This document shows, one piece after another, positions 10,775 to 48,579 of a DNA stretch of 64,000 nt. The stretch is from NCBI GenBank assembly GCA_016184125.1, contig JACPDG010000043.1, forward strand, positions 15,882-79,881. The letters run 5' to 3'. This DNA comes from Candidatus Rokuibacteriota bacterium. Lineage in GTDB: Bacteria; Methylomirabilota; Methylomirabilia; Rokubacteriales; CSP1-6. The notes under the pieces are model-generated. The model was not told where the DNA came from. It made no database searches and saw nothing but the letters and a program-made list of their open reading frames with translations. Each line of letters begins with the position of its first letter. Position 1 is the stretch's first letter. The translations under genes were made by a program, and so were the position numbers.

Positions 10775-12565
10775 TCAGTCGTACGCTCCGTCGAGATACC
10801 ACTCGCCGGTCATCCGGTCGCGCGCGAGACGGCACAGCATGCCGTCCGCGAGCGCGACGTCCCACTCCTCGCGCGCCCACCCGTTCGTCGTCCACCACTC
10901 GCCCGACGTGCGCCACGGCCCTGCGCTCGCGACGATCGCTTGCGGGCGTGACACACCACCGAGCGCGTCGTGGAACGCCACCTGCACCGGCGCGTCATCC
11001 ACGAGCGTGACGTCGACCCGGCGCGGCGGCCGAACACGCCGGAACGCGAGCGGCATGGTCGGCAGCGACCGCGGCGCGCCCGCATCAGCGTCCGCCCCGG
11101 ACGTCGATGGCACCGTGGCGTCACCGTCGCCGTCCCACACCGGCACCTCGCCGTCGTCGCCGTCCCGCCACGCGTCGTCGTCCGAGAGTTCGAGCAACAA
11201 TCGACCGCCGGGCGGTCGATTGTTGGCTCGAACTGAGTCGGCGACGCGCGGCGGCGCGAACGGCACGAGCGTCACCGGATCGGCGCGATGCGAGTCGAGG
11301 ATCACCGGCGAGCCGACGTTGTCGCGGCCGACGAGCGTCGCGAGCCGGACCAGCGTCTCGGTCAGGTCGCGCAGCGCGGGACCGGGACGTTCGCCGAGCC
11401 TCGCCTGCGCCGCCTCCGCGCGGACGGCGCGCGCGCTCACCGCGACGCGGGTGACCGGCGCCGAGGGTGGACGCGCCTCGAGCTCGAGCGCGACGAGGAC
11501 CAGCATCGGCCGTGGATCGCACGACGGCGACGCGAGCGCCACCGTGCGCACATCGTGGGCGCCGCTCGCGAGCGCGAGCTCGAGCCGCAGCGTGTCGGCC
11601 GACACGTGCCCGGCGGCAAGACGCGCCGTGAGCCGCTCGAGCAGCTGCCGGAGCATCGGCTCGAGCCCGCTCCACGTGTCGACCTCCCAGTCGAGCCCCT
11701 GCGCTTCCTGCCAGAACGGCGGCGGCGACCACGGCCGGAACGCTGTCCGGTCGTGGCCGAGCGCCTCGTCCTGCGCGTCGAGCCCTGCCCGGCCGAGCCG
11801 CGTTCCGAGGCCGTCACGAGGCAGCGCCGCGAGCTCGCCGAGCGTCACGACGCCCCAGCGCGCGAACGTCTCGGCGAGCGGCGGCGCCAGATCGAGGACG
11901 GCGAGCGGCACCGCGCCGAGCGCGTCGCGCTCACATCCAGGCGGGACGACGTGGCAGCGGGACGCGATGGACGTCTCCGCAGGCTCAGGGCCCGTGAACG
12001 CATCCGCGGATCGAGCCGCACGCAAACCCGAGGAGCGCCGCGGGTCCCCCGCGGCGCTTCCGAGCGCGGGGGGTTTGGGGGGCTTCGTTAGTCCCCCCAT
12101 GATGGAGAGTCCGGCGATGCGCGCGGCCGTCCGGGTCCCCGCCACGCCGACGGTCGCGTCGAGCCCGACGCCGCGCGCGGCGCGCACGAGCCGCTCCGCG
12201 ATGCGCCCGTCGTCTCCGAGCAATCGCGCGAGCCCGGCGAGGTCGACGGAGACGATCCCTGGCCCGCCGTCTTCCACGCGTGGCGACACCCCGAGCGCGG
12301 CTTCGAGCAGCGCGTGCTGCGCGAGCGTGGCGCGCTCGTCGGACACGGCGCGGACCGCGAGCGCGACGCAGCGGGCGCGTGCTTCGGTCTCCGTCATCCC
12401 CGGCACGACACCCGCGGCGCGAGCAGCATCGCTCGCCTCGACGATGCGCCGCGCGGGCGGCGTCCCCGTCACCACCGCCAGGGGTCGATCCCGCAGGTCC
12501 GGCTCGCACCGCGCGTGCGCGGCCGCGGCGAAGTGGTCGACGAGCAGGCAGCCGAAGCGGTTCAT
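10775..12565 (-). CDS. imuB: ImuB (Y-family polymerase-like mutasome subunit), carrying two in-frame repeat-derived insertions
   Basis: MNRFGCLLVDHFAAAA...UmuC-like N-terminal domain. ATGA overlap with the imuA stop. The ORF remains open through a family A copy (12039-12103) and a family B palindrome (11186-11236). Confidence 0.8.
   Translation of the reverse strand: MNRFGCLLVDHFAAAAHARCEPDLRDRPLAVVTGTPPARRIVEASDAARAAGVVPGMTETEARARCVALAVRAVSDERATLAQHALLEAALGVSPRVEDGGPGIVSVDLAGLARLLGDDGRIAERLVRAARGVGLDATVGVAGTRTAARIAGLSIMGGLTKPPKPPALGSAAGDPRRSSGLRAARSADAFTGPEPAETSIASRCHVVPPGCERDALGAVPLAVLDLAPPLAETFARWGVVTLGELAALPRDGLGTRLGRAGLDAQDEALGHDRTAFRPWSPPPFWQEAQGLDWEVDTWSGLEPMLRQLLERLTARLAAGHVSADTLRLELALASGAHDVRTVALASPSCDPRPMLVLVALELEARPPSAPVTRVAVSARAVRAEAAQARLGERPGPALRDLTETLVRLATLVGRDNVGSPVILDSHRADPVTLVPFAPPRVADSVRANNRPPGGRLLLELSDDDAWRDGDDGEVPVWDGDGDATVPSTSGADADAGAPRSLPTMPLAFRRVRPPRRVDVTLVDDAPVQVAFHDALGGVSRPQAIVASAGPWRTSGEWWTTNGWAREEWDVALADGMLCRLARDRMTGEWYLDGAYD
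11186..11236. repeat. family B 50-bp palindrome, copy B1, inside imuB
   Basis: GAGTTCGAGCAACAATCGACCGCC-GG-GCGGTCGATTGTTGGCTCGAACT; encodes ...ANNRPPGGRLLLE... in frame. Confidence 0.8.
12039..12103 (-). repeat. family A repeat, copy A3 (reverse orientation), inside imuB
   Basis: Reverse complement reads CCATCATGGGGGGACTAACGAAGCCCCCCAAACCCCCCGCGCTCGGAAGCGCC; encodes ...SIMGGLTKPPKPPALGSAAG... in frame. Confidence 0.75.
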
Positions 12566-26486: not shown

Positions 26487-27431
26487 CTACGCGATGGACG
26501 CAAGCTCCACGCGACGGAGCCACGCGGGCTCGCGTCCCGTCCGCTTCAGCGAGGCGAGCACCCGCGCCGGATGCCCCCAGTCGCTCCACTCGACGCTCTT
26601 GACCCGCACCGTCGCGAGGCGCTCGACCCCCCGGGCGAGAACACAGTCCGAGAAGGACAGCGTGGGAAGGCCGGCGTAGAGCGCCTCGATCGCGTGCCGC
26701 TCGCCCGGCGACCCGAGCGCTGCGCGCACGGATGCGAAGGCCGTGTAGAGATCGGGCGCGGTCACGCGGACGAGATCCAGGAAGGCGGTCACCCGACCGA
26801 CCATCACGAAGCTGTTCCAGAGGCAGCCTCGCCGCCACAGGTGCTGGGCGAGTCGCGGCGACGGCTTCTCCCAGAAGCGCCTGATGGGGAACGCCGGTTC
26901 GCCGTCCACCGGAAGCGGGGCCTCGGCGGGACCGATCCAGCCGTACTCGGTCTCCGGGCGGTCAGCCTGCACGCCGAGGAGGATCACGAGGTCCGGCCGA
27001 TGCGCGACGACGTCGCCGGCCGCGACGACGTAGCTCACGAACGCGGGCTCGTCCCCGACGTAGTGATCGGACGGGAAGACGGCCACGGTCGGATCGCCCG
27101 CGAGCTCGCGGATGCGCAGCATCGGGTAGAGGATTCCCGGCGCCGTTCCCCGGTTGTGCGGCTGCACGACGAGGCGGCCTGGCGCGAGATCCGCGGCGAG
27201 GCCACGATAGTATGGCTCGTGCGGGCGGCTGACCACGACGACGTTCCGGTCGAAGCGGGCCACGAGATCGGCGCGACGGCGCGTCCGGTCGAGCAGTGTC
27301 TCGCCATCGAGGAGCGCACAGAACTGCTTCGGCCGCGCATCGCCGGCGATCTGCGTCGTCAGCGGCCGGAGGCGAACACCGTCACCTCCGGCGAGGATGA
27401 GCGCCCACGTCGAGCTCGAACCGGTCGCCAT
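26487..27431 (-). CDS. mannose-1-phosphate guanylyltransferase-like sugar nucleotidyltransferase
   Basis: ALILAGGDGVRLRPLT nucleotide-binding motif...ETEYGWI; 314 aa. Confidence 0.8.
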   Translation of the reverse strand: MATGSSSTWALILAGGDGVRLRPLTTQIAGDARPKQFCALLDGETLLDRTRRRADLVARFDRNVVVVSRPHEPYYRGLAADLAPGRLVVQPHNRGTAPGILYPMLRIRELAGDPTVAVFPSDHYVGDEPAFVSYVVAAGDVVAHRPDLVILLGVQADRPETEYGWIGPAEAPLPVDGEPAFPIRRFWEKPSPRLAQHLWRRGCLWNSFVMVGRVTAFLDLVRVTAPDLYTAFASVRAALGSPGERHAIEALYAGLPTLSFSDCVLARGVERLATVRVKSVEWSDWGHPARVLASLKRTGREPAWLRRVELASIA

Positions 27432-27618
27432 CGTTCCCTCCCACCATCCCTTCGTCGCTGCGCGTCAACAAGCTCCGTTACGTGAAGCGACCGGAGGGCA
27501 CAGCAACAACGATGCCCGCGCACCTCGGTTCGTGCGCCGCGGCGCGCGTCGCGTTTTGAACGACGGGGATGACGCGGGGGGAAGATTGTTCCCCAAGCTG
27601 GAGAGAAAACGCGTTGTC

Positions 27619-29292
27619 TCACTCCTCCACCGGCATCGTGACAGGTTCCCCGGCCCCGTAGAAGTAAGCGCCGCGTCCCGCCGCACCGCCGACGACGGCG
27701 AGCTGGAAGCACCCGGGGTCCTCGACGACCGGGATCGGGACGTCGGGATGGTCGCGCAGCCAGCCGAGCTCGGGATGCGCCGCAGCCATCGCCTTCGGCT
27801 CCTTGTTGAGCGCCAGCGTGCGGAACGGCACGCGGGCCGCCCGGTACATCGCCTGCTGGATCTCGGCCCGGCCCCAGCCTGCGCGCGCGAAGATCTGCGC
27901 GTGCTCGGGGCAGACGAAGAGCGTGTTCTGTTCCTTCTCCTCCGTCCTGGAGCGCGGATCCGCGCGTCGGCCGATGAGCCAGAGCCCCGTGCCGACCTGC
28001 GCCACGTTCGTCGCCGCCGTCGCGTAGACCTGGACCAGGTCCTCGGGCGCGGTCGAGCGGAAGTCGTAGAGCTCGCACATCCCGTAGGCGAAGTGCACCG
28101 TCACCGTGCTCGCGTCCCGTGCGAAGCCCCGCGTGACGTGGTATGGCTCCCACGGGCTCCCGGCCTCGTTCTCGGCGCAGCAGAGGCTGTACTTGAGCGG
28201 CGAGCCGATCGTGTCCATGTCGGACACGCCGACGTACGTGTGTCCGACGTTCATCATCGTGAGCCGCACGGCGCGCCCGAGCACCGTGTTCGACGCCGAG
28301 GGCGCGCCGGGACCGAGCGCGCACAGGCCCGCATTGAGACGGGCGGCGCGGGCACGCGGGCCGTTGGCGAGCACGAGCGGCGCGTGCGGGCCGGTCGACA
28401 TCGCCTTGTTCCTGAGATACATCTTCGGCTCGGCGAGGCAGCGGACCGCGGCGATGAGCAGCGGCAGGTGCTCCGGACCGCAGCCGGCCATGACCGCGCT
28501 GATCGCGAGCTTCTCGACGGTCGCGACACCGAAACCCGGCTCGAGCACGGCGATGGTCTCGCCGGGCGCCCGCTTCGTCCCGGCGAGCATCGCATCCACG
28601 GCACGGCGCGTCGGCGGCACGATGGGAAAGCCGTCCGACCAGCCGCGCGCCAGGAGCTCGCGCTGCATGCGGTCCAGAGCCTCCAGGACATCGTCTCCCT
28701 CGAACGAGAGCACGTCGGGCAGCACCGGGCACACGGGCTCCGAGCGCTCGACCTCGACCGGTCGCGTCAACCCGGCGACGACCTGCTCGACGGCGCCGTC
28801 GACCATCCGGTGAACGTCTTCGGGACGCTGGTTCGTGAACGGCAGCGGGACGACCGCGAGCGGCAGCCCCGGGAGTCCGAAGCTCGCCGCGCTGCGCTCG
28901 GCGTCGTGGACGAACGTCGCGGACGTGAACAGCACGGTCGGGCGGCCGCGCCGCTCGAGCTCGACCATGTCGTGGGCACCCCACGACGTGCACGAGCCTC
29001 AGTCGGCTGTCGTCCCGACGACCGCGTCGACCTCGGCGGCGATCCGGTCGGCGTCTTCCGGCGTGGCGTGCCGCATGATGAATCCGACCGACCCGGTGTA
29101 CCGGCGGAACGTCGTGTCCGGGAACCGCTCGCGCAGGAGCGCTTCGGTGCGGTCGAGCGCCGCGTCGCCGCCGCCCTTCATGTTCCAGTAGAGCCCGACC
29201 GTGAGGCCACGGAGGTCTCGCGGGCGCGGCGCGGGCTTCACCGAGCGCTCGACGGTCGTGGCCACGGGATTCAGGATCTCGACGCGTGCCAT
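27619..29292 (-). CDS. UGSC-family selenoprotein fused in-frame to a ~450-aa C-terminal domain; in-frame TGA (Sec) at 28999-29001
   Basis: Track ORFs 28999-29331 and 27619-28968 share one frame and are separated only by a TGA. Minus-strand read: ...VVGTTAD-TGA-GGC-TCG-TGC = U-G-S-C. AGGAGG ribosome-binding site before the ATG at 29292. SECIS-like hairpin downstream. Confidence 0.7.
28969..28987 (-). promoter_or_regulatory. bacterial SECIS-like hairpin GUCGUGGG-GUG-CCCACGAC, 11 nt downstream of the UGA
   Basis: 8-bp perfect stem, G/U-containing apical loop, spacing typical of bSECIS. Confidence 0.5.
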
Positions 29293-29302
29293 GCGGACCT
29301 CC

Positions 29303-29378
29303 TTCATGGGGGGACTATCGAAGCCCCCCAATCCCCCCGCGCTCGGAGCCCCCCGGCAAAGCCGTGGCGCTCCTCGAC
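29303..29378 (+). repeat. family A repeat, copy A9
   Basis: TTCATGGGGGGACTATCGAAGCCCCCCAATCCCCCCGCGCTCGGAGCCCCCCGGCAAAGCCGTGGCGCTCCTCGACC. Confidence 0.85.
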
Positions 29379-29408
29379 CACCGCCTTCGGTTCACGGGCT
29401 CTCACCCC

Positions 29409-29484
29409 CTTCATGGGGGGACTATCGAAGCCCCCCAATCCCCCCGCGCTCGCACACGCCCCGGGGAACCCGGGGCGTGGCTCG
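29409..29484 (+). repeat. family A repeat, copy A10 (tandem with A9)
   Basis: TTCATGGGGGGACTATCGAAGCCCCCCAATCCCCCCGCGCTCGCACACGCCCCGGGGAACCCGGGGCGTGGCTCGA. Confidence 0.85.
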
Positions 29485-29485
29485 A

Positions 29486-30685
29486 TTACACCACAGCCTT
29501 CTTCGCCCGGAGCGAAGCGATGTCGGCGTCCGAGTAGCCGAGCTCCGCGAGGACCTCGTCGGTGTGCTCGCCGCGCATCGGCGCGTGCCGGCGGATGTCC
29601 GGGTCGATCTCCGAGAACGACACGGGGAATCCGACGACCGGGATGTCGCCGAGCTTGGGGTGCGCCATCCGGCGGATGACGGCGCGGCCCTGCGTCTGCG
29701 GATCCGACAGCGCCTGGCCGACGCTGTTGACCGGCGTGGCGGGCACGCCCGCATCGTCGAGGAGCTTGATGAGCGCGTCGCGGTCGTACCCCGCGATCGC
29801 GTCGCCGACGAGCTGCTCCAGCTCCGTGCGGTGCTTCACGCGCTCGATGTTGACCGCGAAGCGCGGGTCGTCGGCCATCCACTCGAGCCCGAGCGCCGTG
29901 GCGAGGCGCCGCCACAACCGGTCGTTCGCGCCCGCGATGAAGACCCACTGGCCGTCGGCGCAGCGGAAGTTGCGGTACGGAGACAGGGCCGGGTGCGCGG
30001 AGCCGAGCGCCTGGGGGACTTTTCCGACCAGCAGGTAGCCTTCGGCCTGGAAGTTCATGAGCCCGACGGCGGTCTCGAGCAGCGAGCCGTCCACGCGCTG
30101 GCCGCGGCCCGTCTGCGCGCGGTGGTGCAGCGCGGACACGACGCCGAGCGCGCACAGGATCCCGGTCGTGAGGTCCAGGAACGACACGCCGCACCGCACC
30201 GGTGGACCGCCCGGCTCACCGGTGATCGACATGATCCCGCTGAACGCCTGCATGAGCGCCTCGTACCCGGCACCCGCGGCGCGGGGCCCGGTGCGCCCGA
30301 AGGCCGAGACCGAGCAGTAGATCAACCGCGGGTTCATCGCCGAGAGCGCGTCGTACCCGAGACCGAACTCCTCCATGGTCCCCGTGCGGAAGTTCTCGAT
30401 CAGCACGTCGGCGTCCCGGGCGAGCTTCCGGACGATCTCGACGCCTTCCGGCGTCTTCAGGTCGACCGAGATGCCGCGCTTGTTGCGATTGTTCACGAGG
30501 TACCCCGCCGCCTCGCCGTCCTTGTGGGGCGGCCAGGTGCGGGACTCGTCGCCGACCGTGGGGTCCTCGATCTTGATGACGTCGGCGCCGAGATCGCCGA
30601 GGAGCGCGCCGCAGAACGGGCCGGCGAGGACGCGGGAGCAGTCGATGACGCGGAGACCGGCGAGAGGCGGGCGGTTCGTGGCCAT
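29486..30685 (-). CDS. family III CoA-transferase (CaiB/BaiF/Frc-like)
   Basis: MATNRPPLAGLRVIDCSRVLAGPFCGALLGDLGADVIKIE...; 399 aa. Confidence 0.9.
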   Translation of the reverse strand: MATNRPPLAGLRVIDCSRVLAGPFCGALLGDLGADVIKIEDPTVGDESRTWPPHKDGEAAGYLVNNRNKRGISVDLKTPEGVEIVRKLARDADVLIENFRTGTMEEFGLGYDALSAMNPRLIYCSVSAFGRTGPRAAGAGYEALMQAFSGIMSITGEPGGPPVRCGVSFLDLTTGILCALGVVSALHHRAQTGRGQRVDGSLLETAVGLMNFQAEGYLLVGKVPQALGSAHPALSPYRNFRCADGQWVFIAGANDRLWRRLATALGLEWMADDPRFAVNIERVKHRTELEQLVGDAIAGYDRDALIKLLDDAGVPATPVNSVGQALSDPQTQGRAVIRRMAHPKLGDIPVVGFPVSFSEIDPDIRRHAPMRGEHTDEVLAELGYSDADIASLRAKKAVV

Positions 30686-30721
30686 GGGCGCTACTATAGC
30701 GTTTCCGGTTACTATGAGCAC

Positions 30722-34137
<3,416 letters not shown>

Positions 34138-34138
<1 letters not shown>

Positions 34139-48048: not shown

Positions 48049-48579
48049 TCAGCTCGCGAATCCCTGCGGGGCGAGCTGGAACGCCTTCGCGAACTTGCTC
48101 GCGAAGGTCTGGTACCCCACGATGAACGTGAGCTCGAGGATCTCCGCCTCCGAGAAGTGCTCGCGGACCCTCGCGTAGCACGCGTCCGACACGTCGCGGT
48201 CGTCCCGCACGATCTCGGTCGCGAACGACAGGGCCGCCCGCTCGCGCTCGGCGAACGCCTCGCTCGTCTCGAACGCGTCGAGCGCGGCGAGCTTCTCGAC
48301 CGGGACACCGGCCTTCACGCCGACGGCGTGACGGATGTCCATTCAGTACGCGGCCCGGTAGAGGCTCGCGACGTGCAGCTGGAGCATCGCGCGGAGCTCG
48401 CGGTCGATCCTGCCGAACCACTCGATCGAGCCCCAGAGCCCGCCGATGCCGAGCATCAGCGGCACGCGGTGGGCCATGATCTTCTCGGGTGTCGGCACGG
48501 CGCCGAAGAGCCGCTCGCCCACCCTGTAGAACGCCCTCACGGCCAGGCCCGGTCGGTCGATCTCGGAGATGCGCTGCAT
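48049..48579 (-). CDS. AhpD-like / carboxymuconolactone decarboxylase (CMD) family selenoprotein candidate; in-frame TGA at 48343-48345
   Basis: Track ORFs 48343-48579 and 48049-48342 are contiguous in one frame. Read: ...LHVASLYRAAY-TGA-MDIRHAVG... aligns with the CMD redox motif (second Cys of CxxC replaced by U, His four residues downstream). C-terminal FSEAEILELTFIVGYQTF is typical of the CMD family. Confidence 0.7.
48316..48330 (-). promoter_or_regulatory. SECIS-like hairpin CACGCC-GUC-GGCGUG, 12 nt downstream of the UGA
   Basis: Perfect 6-bp stem, GUC loop. Confidence 0.45.

What the first reader, a model, noticed from the sequence alone, without database searches (positions are those of the whole stretch)
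27619..29292. Selenocysteine-containing UGSC-family protein fused in-frame to a ~450-aa domain, with a SECIS-like hairpin
The ORF track shows two minus-strand ORFs (28999-29331, 110 aa, and 27619-28968, 449 aa) in the same reading frame, separated only by a single TGA at 28999-29001. Reading the minus strand across the junction gives ...AAEVDAVVGTTAD-TGA-GGC-TCG-TGC-ACG-TCG-TGG..., so the stop sits exactly at the U of a U-G-S-C tetrapeptide, the defining motif of the UGSC (seleno)protein family. Eleven nucleotides further on there is a perfect 8-bp hairpin, GUCGUGGG-GUG-CCCACGAC (28969-28987), with G and U in the apical loop, placed where a bacterial SECIS is expected. The upstream ATG at 29292 has a strong AGGAGG ribosome-binding site. 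If decoded as Sec, the product is a ~557-aa fusion in which the UGSC module is the N-terminal domain of a larger protein. My recollection is that UGSC proteins are genomically linked to DUF1116 (YlbE/AllG-like) proteins, but I cannot verify the family of the C-terminal domain. Any standard gene caller would split or truncate this gene.
Basis: partly seen in the sequence, partly recalled or inferred. Interest (0 to 1): 0.85.

Follow-up and report, generated by a model that had tools for sequence, protein, structure and literature searches.

The report
Split-annotated UGSC selenoprotein fusion gene
This is a real selenocysteine-encoding gene of the known but uncharacterised UGSC family, fused to a large unnamed domain, that gene callers routinely cut in two at the UGA; it is a correct catch rather than a new kind of system.

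Summary
One minus-strand reading frame (29292..27619) has a single in-frame TGA at codon 98, inside a U-G-S-C motif. A perfect 8-bp hairpin starts 11 nt downstream, and an AGGAGG ribosome-binding site precedes the ATG.

Evidence that the TGA is decoded as selenocysteine:
- The Pfam UGSC model matches residues 5-176, across the TGA.
- Full-length homologues carry Cys at that position.
- 66 homologous genes from GTDB genomes of many phyla keep TGA there.
- The hairpin is 91% paired in those genes, with compensatory changes in 6 of 8 pairs.

The product is a 557-aa two-domain protein: a UGSC redox domain of about 172 aa and a C-terminal domain of about 370 aa. The C-terminal domain is not DUF1116. 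It matches no Pfam or NCBIfam model and no solved structure. It is nevertheless very widespread, either fused to UGSC or encoded next to it.

A family III CoA-transferase gene lies directly upstream here and in close relatives.

UGSC is a published selenoprotein family, and a UGSC fusion to an unknown domain was reported in 2008. I therefore rate this a new member of a known kind. Its biochemical function is still unknown.

The Sec-insertion machinery could not be checked from this window. A second selenoprotein-family gene at 48 kb gives indirect support.

The parts
27619..29292 (-). Complete coding sequence of the selenoprotein: 557 codons plus the terminal TGA at 27619-27621, with Sec at codon 98.
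   Evidence: Translation. The N-terminus aligns with full-length homologues. The close relative L081 has the same 557-codon layout. Codons 1-97 versus L081: 41 identical, 30 synonymous and 26 non-synonymous, which indicates purifying selection upstream of the TGA.
29298..29303 (-). Ribosome-binding site AGGAGG, 5 nt upstream of the ATG at 29290-29292.
   Evidence: Read directly from the sequence.
28999..29001 (-). In-frame UGA (codon 98), the U of the U-G-S-C motif, decoded as selenocysteine.
   Evidence: Cys (TGDCGSCTSW) sits at this column in full-length homologues. TGA is kept at this column in 70 homologous genes (66 with U-x-x-C, 4 of them clearly divergent) from many phyla, and TGC is found in 4.
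28958..28998 (-). SECIS element. The upper stem-loop GUCGUGGG-GUG-CCCACGAC is at 28969-28987. A lower stem begins immediately after the UGA.
   Evidence: Fold results. Across 70 TGA homologues, 91.2% of cells are paired, 6 of 8 pairs show changes on both sides, 0 of 500 shuffles reach the observed value, and slid controls are only 18-46% paired.
28765..29280 (-). UGSC domain (residues 5-176), spanning the Sec codon. The predicted fold is a flavodoxin/Rossmann-like alpha/beta sandwich, with the U-x-x-C motif at the end of a strand and the start of a helix.
27622..28725 (-). C-terminal domain (residues ~190-557) of unknown family. Conserved motifs: GWSDG-P-PPT, NAVMAGC, LGPG, IGRA-RL, AENE-SPWEP.
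29486..30685 (-). Family III CoA-transferase gene (399 aa), directly upstream on the same strand; probably the operon partner.
   Evidence: Pfam CoA_transf_3, E = 1.3e-130. Start and stop codons read. The same gene sits 4-10 nt upstream of the UGSC gene in close relatives and next to split versions.

Best explanation
One gene (29292..27619, minus strand) encodes a 557-aa selenoprotein. The UGA at codon 98 is recoded to selenocysteine by a bacterial SECIS stem-loop that starts right after it. The loop, G-U-G, lies 19 nt from the UGA. The hairpin is built from the codons of the conserved T-S-W...H-D residues.

The protein has two domains. The first is an N-terminal UGSC domain of about 172 aa, with a U-x-x-C redox motif at a strand-to-helix junction. 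The second is a C-terminal domain of about 370 aa from a large family with no name in Pfam, NCBIfam or the PDB, carrying a nearly invariant Cys (NAVMAGC), Glu (AENE) and Arg.

**Shown here:** the recoding signal, the domain architecture, the Sec/Cys exchange, the fused and split forms, and the gene neighbourhood.

**Inferred, at much lower confidence:** the U-x-x-C centre cycles between selenol/thiol and selenenylsulfide and serves the C-terminal domain as a built-in reductant or nucleophile. The pair would then act on a carboxylic acid or acyl-CoA supplied by the adjacent family III CoA-transferase, loosely analogous to the UxxC selenoprotein B subunits of the glycine and proline reductases.
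For: **Recoding.**
- The Pfam UGSC model covers residues 5-176, across the TGA.
- Full-length homologues of 550-580 aa are continuous, and most carry Cys at that column.
- Of 80 GTDB loci, 70 homologous genes keep TGA at that column and 4 have TGC. They come from Dehalococcoidia, Beta-, Delta-, Alpha- and Gammaproteobacteria, Acidobacteriota, Methylomirabilota, Binatia and a Robertmurraya isolate.
- The hairpin is 91% paired, and 6 of 8 pairs have compensatory changes. These include paired changes at synonymous sites (Ser UCA with His CAU) and Trp-to-Cys changes compensated at a synonymous Val/Ala site.
- The N-terminal 97 codons are under purifying selection relative to L081.
- The ATG that opens the 449-aa ORF is present in only 19 of 70 homologues, so there is no conserved restart codon.
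- TGA works as an ordinary stop in this genome; this gene itself ends in TGA.
- A second TGA-interrupted gene at 48049-48579 matches the NCBIfam model 'YciW-related (seleno)protein' across its TGA.

**Functional link between the two domains.**
- Split two-gene versions exist, with overlapping stop and start codons (L083; Natrinema zhouii) or in the reverse gene order (L084).

**Genomic context.**
- A family III CoA-transferase is adjacent here and in close relatives.
- In more distant loci the neighbours are TctC/Bug binding proteins, MmgE/PrpD, enoyl-CoA hydratase, acyl-CoA dehydrogenase, SDR and isocitrate lyase/PEP-mutase genes.
Against: - No selA, selB, selD or tRNA-Sec is present in the window (Pfam scans). 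The rest of the genome is not available.
- There is no protein-level evidence for selenium incorporation.
- The hairpin overlaps conserved codons, and much of it also survives in the four Cys forms (5-7 of 8 positions pair; my count on the sequences). Conservation alone is therefore not proof; the argument rests on the compensatory changes.
- The biochemical role is inference only. The CoA-transferase is within 6 kb in just 8 of 80 diverse loci, and a TrxB-like gene in only about 3 of 87.
- Similarity to GrdB is sub-threshold (17.8 bits; 2 of 22 homologues at E < 0.05).
- Some homologues have lost the U/C-x-x-C motif yet keep the C-domain Cys. The C-terminal domain may therefore work without a redox-active UGSC.
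Confidence: 0.85

Rival explanations
1. Two separate genes. Translation really ends at the TGA, giving a 97-aa peptide, and a 449-aa protein starts independently at the ATG at 28968, as public annotations show.
For: Gene callers produce exactly this split in relatives. The ATG at codon 109 exists here, and a G-rich stretch lies upstream of it.
Against: - The UGSC model and the predicted alpha/beta fold run through the TGA, so each half would be an incomplete domain.
- Cys homologues are continuous.
- The ATG is absent in 51 of 70 TGA homologues.
- The putative Shine-Dalgarno stretch is sequestered inside the hairpin stem.
Confidence: 0.04
2. A pseudogene or a sequencing error: a TGC/TGT Cys codon mutated or misread as TGA.
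For: A single-base change converts TGC to TGA. RefSeq appears to treat some relatives as broken: Acidovorax sp. T1 has a CDS listed only for the 96-aa fragment.
Against: - TGA occurs at the same column in 70 independent genes across phyla, far outnumbering Cys forms. This agrees with the 255 Sec versus 21 Cys sequences reported for the family in GOS (PMC2398784).
- Both flanks are under purifying selection.
- The RNA hairpin shows covariation.
Confidence: 0.02
3. The UGA is read through without selenium, for example by near-cognate Trp or Cys insertion. The hairpin would act only as a readthrough stimulator, or would be a by-product of the amino-acid motif.
For: The Sec machinery was not seen in the window. 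The hairpin partly survives in Cys forms.
Against: - The stem-loop fits the bacterial SECIS pattern as I know it: loop 16-37 nt from the UGA, with G in the apical loop.
- UGSC is an established selenoprotein family (NF041046; PMC1976440; PMC2398784).
- A second selenoprotein-family gene in the window has its own hairpin.
- A relative carries a CxxU AhpD-like gene next to its UGSC gene.
Confidence: 0.05
4. A rival for function only. The protein is not a reductase working with the CoA-transferase. The C-terminal domain is an independent enzyme or binding module, such as a Cys-dependent isomerase or lyase of di- or tricarboxylates, and UGSC is only a regulatory or protective redox sensor.
For: - The C-domain Cys is kept where the UGSC redox motif is lost.
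- Proteins carrying two C-domains and no UGSC exist.
- The neighbours vary between lineages: TctC, MmgE/PrpD, isocitrate lyase family.
Against: Repeated fusion and tight coupling of UGSC with the C-domain across bacteria and archaea argue for direct cooperation.
Confidence: 0.3

Closest known systems
UGSC-containing selenoprotein family (Pfam PF24696; NCBIfam NF041046; type example Hyphomonas neptunium ABI76733.1; Zhang & Gladyshev, PMC1976440 and PMC2398784)
   Same: The U-G-S-C motif is at the same position, and the Pfam match covers the full model (126.8 bits). Sec forms greatly outnumber Cys forms. The SECIS lies directly downstream of the UGA. Function is unknown.
   Different: The window protein scores below the NCBIfam equivalog cut-off (101.9 against 125 bits). 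It also carries an extra C-terminal domain of about 370 aa that is absent from the short stand-alone form of about 150-215 aa.
'UGSC/Unknown_1' fusion reported from Global Ocean Sampling reads (PMC2398784, Figure S1A)
   Same: A UGSC selenoprotein fused to a conserved domain of unknown function that contains a conserved Cys.
   Different: I could not verify that Unknown_1 is the same domain. The figure panel is an image, and the stored sequence file is cut before the UGSC entries.
Split two-gene form, e.g. Natrinema zhouii WP_226778461.1 ('UGSC family (seleno)protein') plus WP_226778460.1 ('hypothetical protein')
   Same: The same two modules are encoded by adjacent genes that overlap by 4 nt, with a CoA-transferase gene nearby. 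L083 and L084 are similar.
   Different: Two polypeptides rather than one. The archaeal copy is annotated as a single uninterrupted CDS; its residue at the Sec position was not read. In L084 the gene order is reversed.
Selenoprotein B subunits of the glycine/sarcosine/betaine and D-proline reductases (GrdB, GrdF, GrdH, PrdB)
   Same: They have a UxxC motif (PMC2398784, Table 2, lists UxxC for PrdB). Four GrdB-family NCBIfam models give weak hits on the same stretch around the Sec, residues ~82-125.
   Different: The scores are far below the family cut-offs, and only 2 of 22 homologues reach E < 0.05. There is no pyruvoyl partner subunit (GrdE or PrdA) nearby. The C-terminal domain is unrelated.

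Membership tests
UGSC family (Pfam PF24696) | Match to the family HMM above the gathering score, over the whole domain | tested here: met
   126.8 bits against a cut-off of 25. Residues 5-176 match model positions 1-171 of 172. All 22 full-length homologues also match.
UGSC family (Pfam PF24696) | U/C-G-S-C tetrapeptide at the conserved strand-to-helix junction | tested here: met
   The window reads D-U-G-S-C-T-S-W, and homologues read D-C-G-S-C-T-S-W. In the AlphaFold2 model of P0124 the motif lies between a strand and a helix.
NCBIfam NF041046 UGSC_fam (equivalog of the short stand-alone protein) | Score above the curated equivalog cut-off (125 bits) | tested here: not met
   101.9 bits. The fused proteins form a divergent subgroup; P0124 scores 86.5 bits.
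Bacterial selenoprotein gene | In-frame UGA that aligns with Cys in homologues | tested here: met
   TGC in L002, L006, L027 and L073, and TGA in 70 other genes.
Bacterial selenoprotein gene | SECIS stem-loop just downstream of the UGA, with the apical loop 16-37 nt away and containing G (bSECIS criteria as I know them), and conserved | tested here: met
   The loop GUG starts 19 nt after the UGA. Across homologues, 91% of cells are paired and 6 of 8 pairs show compensatory changes. bSECISearch itself was not available.
Bacterial selenoprotein gene | selA, selB, selD and tRNA-Sec present in the same genome | not testable with these tools
   The window has no tRNA genes and no sel genes among about 31 ORFs scanned. 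Only 64 kb of the genome is available. Indirect support: a second selenoprotein-family gene with an in-frame TGA at 48343-48345.
Bacterial selenoprotein gene | Selenium physically present in the protein | not testable with these tools
   This needs 75Se labelling or mass spectrometry.
   The window protein has no Pfam hit other than UGSC at E <= 1. The same holds for 22 homologues at E <= 0.05.
GrdB/PrdB selenoprotein B family | Match to the family models above their cut-offs | tested here: not met
   TIGR01917 scores 17.8 bits against a cut-off of 602, and TIGR01918 scores 14.4 against 65. Only 2 of 22 homologues reach E < 0.05. There is no Pfam GRDB hit.
Thioredoxin fold (suggested for UGSC in PMC2398784) | Structural similarity to thioredoxin-fold proteins | tested here: not met

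The most novel reading that the evidence does not exclude
Probability: 0.4. Interest if true: 0.6.

Novelty: new member of a known kind. Interest (0 to 1): 0.35.

Why it matters
**Annotation.** This gene and hundreds of relatives are stored in public databases as two 'hypothetical proteins', or as a fragment with no CDS listed for the rest. Proteome predictions, domain catalogues and metabolic models therefore all miss a 557-aa selenoprotein.

**Biology.** UGSC is reported as one of the most abundant prokaryotic selenoprotein families in aquatic metagenomes, yet it has no known function. This work shows three things that narrow the search:
- It is regularly fused to, or translationally coupled with, one specific large domain.
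- That domain has no family model and no structural relative.
- Both sit next to CoA-transferase and carboxylate-catabolism genes.

The search for a substrate can therefore focus on organic-acid or acyl-CoA chemistry.

None of this changes what is known about how selenocysteine is inserted.

Tried and rejected
- **DUF1116 for the C-terminal domain.** No Pfam hit.
- **PDB sequence-profile search with 107 homologues.** No match at E <= 1.
- **AFDB Foldseek library.** Not available.
- **Modelling the fused window protein with Cys at position 98.** I modelled the Cys homologue P0124 and the window C-domain instead.
- **Homology to GrdB/PrdB.** Only weak, sub-threshold hits. I keep it as an analogy, not as family membership.
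- **A thioredoxin-reductase partner.** A trxB-like gene is adjacent in Variovorax, L084 and L017, but in only about 3 of 87 loci. It is not a general feature.
- **Exact look-up of the window's 449-aa product.** Not on record.
- **Checking the 2008 'Unknown_1' domain.** The figure is an image and the sequence file is truncated.
- **Rfam on 27000-31500.** Nothing found.
- **Two metagenome scans for the upstream repeat element.** No matches.
- **Literature search for Sec use in Rokubacteria.** Nothing useful.
Full report
**1. The observation.**
The window has 71% G+C. On the minus strand, the ORF listing gives ORFs 28999..29331 (110 aa) and 27619..28968 (449 aa). Translating 29292..27619 gives 557 codons plus the stop, with one internal stop at codon 98...AEVDAVVGTTAD*GSCTSWGAHDMVELERRG.... 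The TGA is at 28999-29001. Eleven nucleotides further on lies GUCGUGGG-GUG-CCCACGAC (28969-28987). The minimum-free-energy fold adds a lower stem that starts right after the UGA. AGGAGG (29298-29303) precedes the ATG at 29292 by 5 nt. On its own the fold is only marginally better than shuffled sequence in this GC-rich DNA (z = -1.96), so the case has to rest on comparison with homologues.

**2. What the gene is.**
With Cys substituted at codon 98, the Pfam model PF24696 (UGSC family) matches residues 5-176 (model positions 1-171 of 172, E = 1.3e-36, 126.8 bits against a cut-off of 25). The UGSC domain therefore spans the TGA: 97 residues before it and 78 after it. NCBIfam NF041046, 'UGSC family (seleno)protein', also matches, but below its equivalog cut-off (101.9 against 125 bits). 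Nothing in Pfam or NCBIfam matches residues ~177-557.

A word-indexed search of 5.8 billion proteins returned 1092 hits. The top 120 are all 438-451 aa (mostly 447-449) and 75-90% identical. They are 'hypothetical proteins' from Rokubacteria, Methylomirabilota and NC10 metagenomes that begin just after the TGA. Gene callers have truncated every one of them. From these hits I infer that the window comes from that lineage.

An exhaustive HMMER search of cluster representatives found 4608 clusters (E <= 0.001), in four length classes:
- about 440-460 aa, truncated Sec forms;
- about 550-580 aa, full length;
- about 340-370 aa, C-terminal domain alone;
- about 710-740 aa, two copies of the C-terminal domain.

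In an alignment of 21 full-length proteins with the window protein, most carry Cys at the Sec column (consensus TGDCGSCTSW). Their N-termini coincide with the ATG at 29292.

**3. Is the UGA decoded as selenocysteine?**
A scan of one genome per GTDB species matched at least 599 stretches; I kept the best 80 loci. In 70 homologous genes from these loci the codon at the U position is TGA. The organisms include Dehalococcoidia, Beta-, Delta-, Alpha- and Gammaproteobacteria, Acidobacteriota, Methylomirabilota, Binatia, Actinomycetota and a cultured Robertmurraya. Four genes have TGC: Nonomuraea, an alphaproteobacterium, Sphingomonas and the archaeon Natrialba.

The 45 nt starting at the TGA align without gaps. 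For the helix at columns 15-22/26-33, the counts are:
- 91.2% of cells form standard pairs, against 18-46% when the 3' partners are slid by 1-3 columns.
- 6 of 8 pairs show changes on both sides, in 26 cells.
- 0 of 500 shuffles reach the observed covariation score.

The compensatory changes fall at synonymous sites. All three genes with Ser UCG changed to UCA also have His CAC changed to CAU. Changes at the third position of the Trp codon are accompanied by a complementary change at the third position of a Val/Ala codon (G-C to C-G in 7 genes). U at the second loop position is nearly invariant.

The hairpin is built from the codons of the conserved T-S-W...H-D residues. For that reason 5-7 of its 8 pairs also survive in the Cys forms (my count). 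Conservation alone is therefore weak evidence, and the compensatory changes carry the argument.

Further support:
- Codons 1-97 compared with the 80%-identical relative L081 show 41 identical, 30 synonymous and 26 non-synonymous codons.
- The ATG that opens the 449-aa ORF is present in only 19 of 70 Sec-type genes.
- TGA is a normal stop in this genome; this gene itself ends in TGA.

The Sec machinery could not be examined. The window has no tRNA genes and no sel genes among about 31 ORFs scanned.

There is indirect support. Only one other in-frame TGA in the window is flanked by coding-like GC3 signal on both sides, at 48343-48345 on the minus strand. Its read-through product (48579..48049) matches NCBIfam NF053654, 'YciW-related (seleno)protein', across the TGA (E = 6.8e-29, below the equivalog cut-off). 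It also gives a sub-threshold Pfam CMD hit, and a hairpin with a G-first loop follows the UGA. In the relative L081, a C-x-x-U AhpD-like gene lies immediately downstream of the UGSC gene.

**4. The C-terminal domain.**
It is not DUF1116. A profile built from 107 homologues finds no PDB sequence at E <= 1. AlphaFold2 models are confident: the full-length Cys homologue P0124 has pLDDT 93.4 and pTM 0.94, and the window residues 190-557 have pLDDT 96.7.

**5. Context.**
A 399-aa family III CoA-transferase gene (29486..30685, minus strand; Pfam E = 1.3e-130) lies directly upstream. The ORF listing hides it inside a 1540-aa ORF antisense to metH. In close relatives it ends 4-10 nt before the UGSC start, and the wider synteny is the same: metH, CoA-transferase, UGSC, NTP-transferase, response regulator, SDR, RNase D and a CoA-binding protein.

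Split versions of the UGSC/C-domain pair also occur:
- L083 has a UGSC gene (itself split at its TGA) followed by a C-domain gene that overlaps it by 4 nt.
- L084 has IclR, the C-domain gene, UGSC and a CoA-transferase.
- A Natrinema zhouii plasmid has 'UGSC family (seleno)protein' overlapping a 'hypothetical protein' by 4 nt. CoA-transferase, HMG-CoA lyase, enoyl-CoA hydratase and isocitrate lyase/PEP-mutase genes are nearby.

Across the 80 diverse loci the neighbours vary:
- TctC/Bug binding proteins lie within 700 nt in 16 loci, mostly betaproteobacterial.
- MmgE/PrpD genes are present in 12 loci.
- SDR genes are present in 13 loci.
- Enoyl-CoA hydratase genes are present in 10 loci.
- CoA-transferase III genes are present in 8 loci.
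- Acyl-CoA dehydrogenase genes are present in 5 loci.

A trxB-like gene is adjacent in only about three loci. The recurring theme is catabolism of carboxylic acids and their CoA esters.

**6. How it most likely works.**
Shown by comparison: SECIS-dependent recoding of UGA98, giving a two-domain selenoprotein. Inferred: the U-x-x-C motif sits at a strand-to-helix junction and acts as a selenol/thiol redox or nucleophilic centre serving the C-terminal domain. The substrate would be an organic acid or acyl-CoA supplied by the neighbouring CoA-transferase.

The nearest mechanistic analogy is the UxxC selenoprotein B of the glycine and proline reductases. Sequence similarity to GrdB is too weak to claim homology. 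My confidence is about 0.85-0.9 for the recoding and architecture, and about 0.3-0.4 for the enzymology.

**7. Comparison with what is known, and novelty.**
UGSC-containing proteins were described as selenoproteins of unknown function in 2007 (PMC1976440). They were among the most abundant selenoprotein families in the Global Ocean Sampling data, with 255 Sec against 21 Cys sequences. That paper also reported a 'UGSC/Unknown_1' fusion (PMC2398784). Recent reviews still list the family as uncharacterised (PMC9312934; PMC13188914). I could not verify that Unknown_1 is the same domain.

The additions here are the exact domain boundary, the SECIS covariation, the fused and split distribution, the absence of any family model or structural relative for the C-terminal domain, and the CoA-transferase link.

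Public annotation is systematically wrong for this gene. For example, the Acidovorax sp. T1 IncP plasmid carries a fused Sec-type copy, yet only a 96-aa 'hypothetical protein' is listed for it.

**8. Verdict.**
Interest is moderate to low (0.35). This is a real gene and a useful annotation fix, and it offers a lead on an open but niche functional question. It would not surprise a selenoprotein specialist.

Noticed in passing
window 48049-48579 (-), TGA at 48343-48345: A second candidate selenoprotein gene. The frame reads ...LHVASLYRAAY-U-MDIRHAVG..., with coding-like GC3 on both sides of the TGA. It matches NCBIfam NF053654 'YciW-related (seleno)protein' across the TGA (E = 6.8e-29, below the equivalog cut-off) and gives a sub-threshold Pfam CMD hit. 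A hairpin UCACGCC-GUC-GGCGUGA lies about 14 nt after the UGA.
   Followed up: partly
window 29301-29338 (-), 29408-29445 (-), 12068-12105 (+): A 38-nt element, GGGGGGATTGGGGGGCTTCGATAGTCCCCCCATGAAGG, occurs twice exactly in the 193-nt spacer between the CoA-transferase and UGSC genes; relatives have only 4-10 nt there. A third copy, with 3 mismatches, lies at 12 kb. None are expected by chance. The copy nearest the gene supplies the AGGAGG ribosome-binding site. There is no Rfam match and no exact match in the metagenome collection. It is possibly a small lineage-specific intergenic repeat.
   Followed up: partly
window ~29455-29479 (-): A strong GC-rich hairpin, CACGCCCCGGG-TTC-CCCGGGGCGTG, directly after the CoA-transferase stop codon, with no T-run following it. 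A similar hairpin precedes the third repeat copy near 12040.
   Followed up: no
window 29486-30685 (-), within ORF 29486..34108: The CoA-transferase III gene is masked in the mechanical ORF list by a 1540-aa ORF antisense to metH. On the opposite strand, metH appears as a 1645-aa ORF (29201..34138), although its Pfam domains begin only at residue 526 of that ORF.
   Followed up: yes
L081 11376-11906 (+): In an 80%-identical relative, a C-x-x-U AhpD-like selenoprotein gene (NGCEY*TRAH) lies directly downstream of the UGSC fusion gene. It is called as two fragments of 80 and 83 aa.
   Followed up: partly
L018 (4202, 6271, 7965); L005, L042, L060: Several genomes carry two or three paralogous Sec-type UGSC genes within a few kb, each with its own TGA and hairpin.
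   Followed up: no
L088 4437-6140 (Acidovorax sp. T1 plasmid p2-T1, NZ_CP021650.1): A conjugative IncP plasmid of a cultured isolate carries a fused Sec-type copy (GD*GSCTSWSVHD) next to isocitrate lyase/PEP-mutase, FAD-oxidoreductase and TctC genes. The gene table lists only the 96-aa N-terminal piece, and the C-terminal end looks divergent.
   Followed up: partly
proteins P0169, P0201, P0205, P0207; locus L085: Proteins of 710-740 aa contain two copies of the C-terminal domain. No Pfam family, UGSC included, is on record for P0169. Some full-length homologues (P0130, P0184, P0213, P0237) have lost the U/C-x-x-C motif.
   Followed up: no
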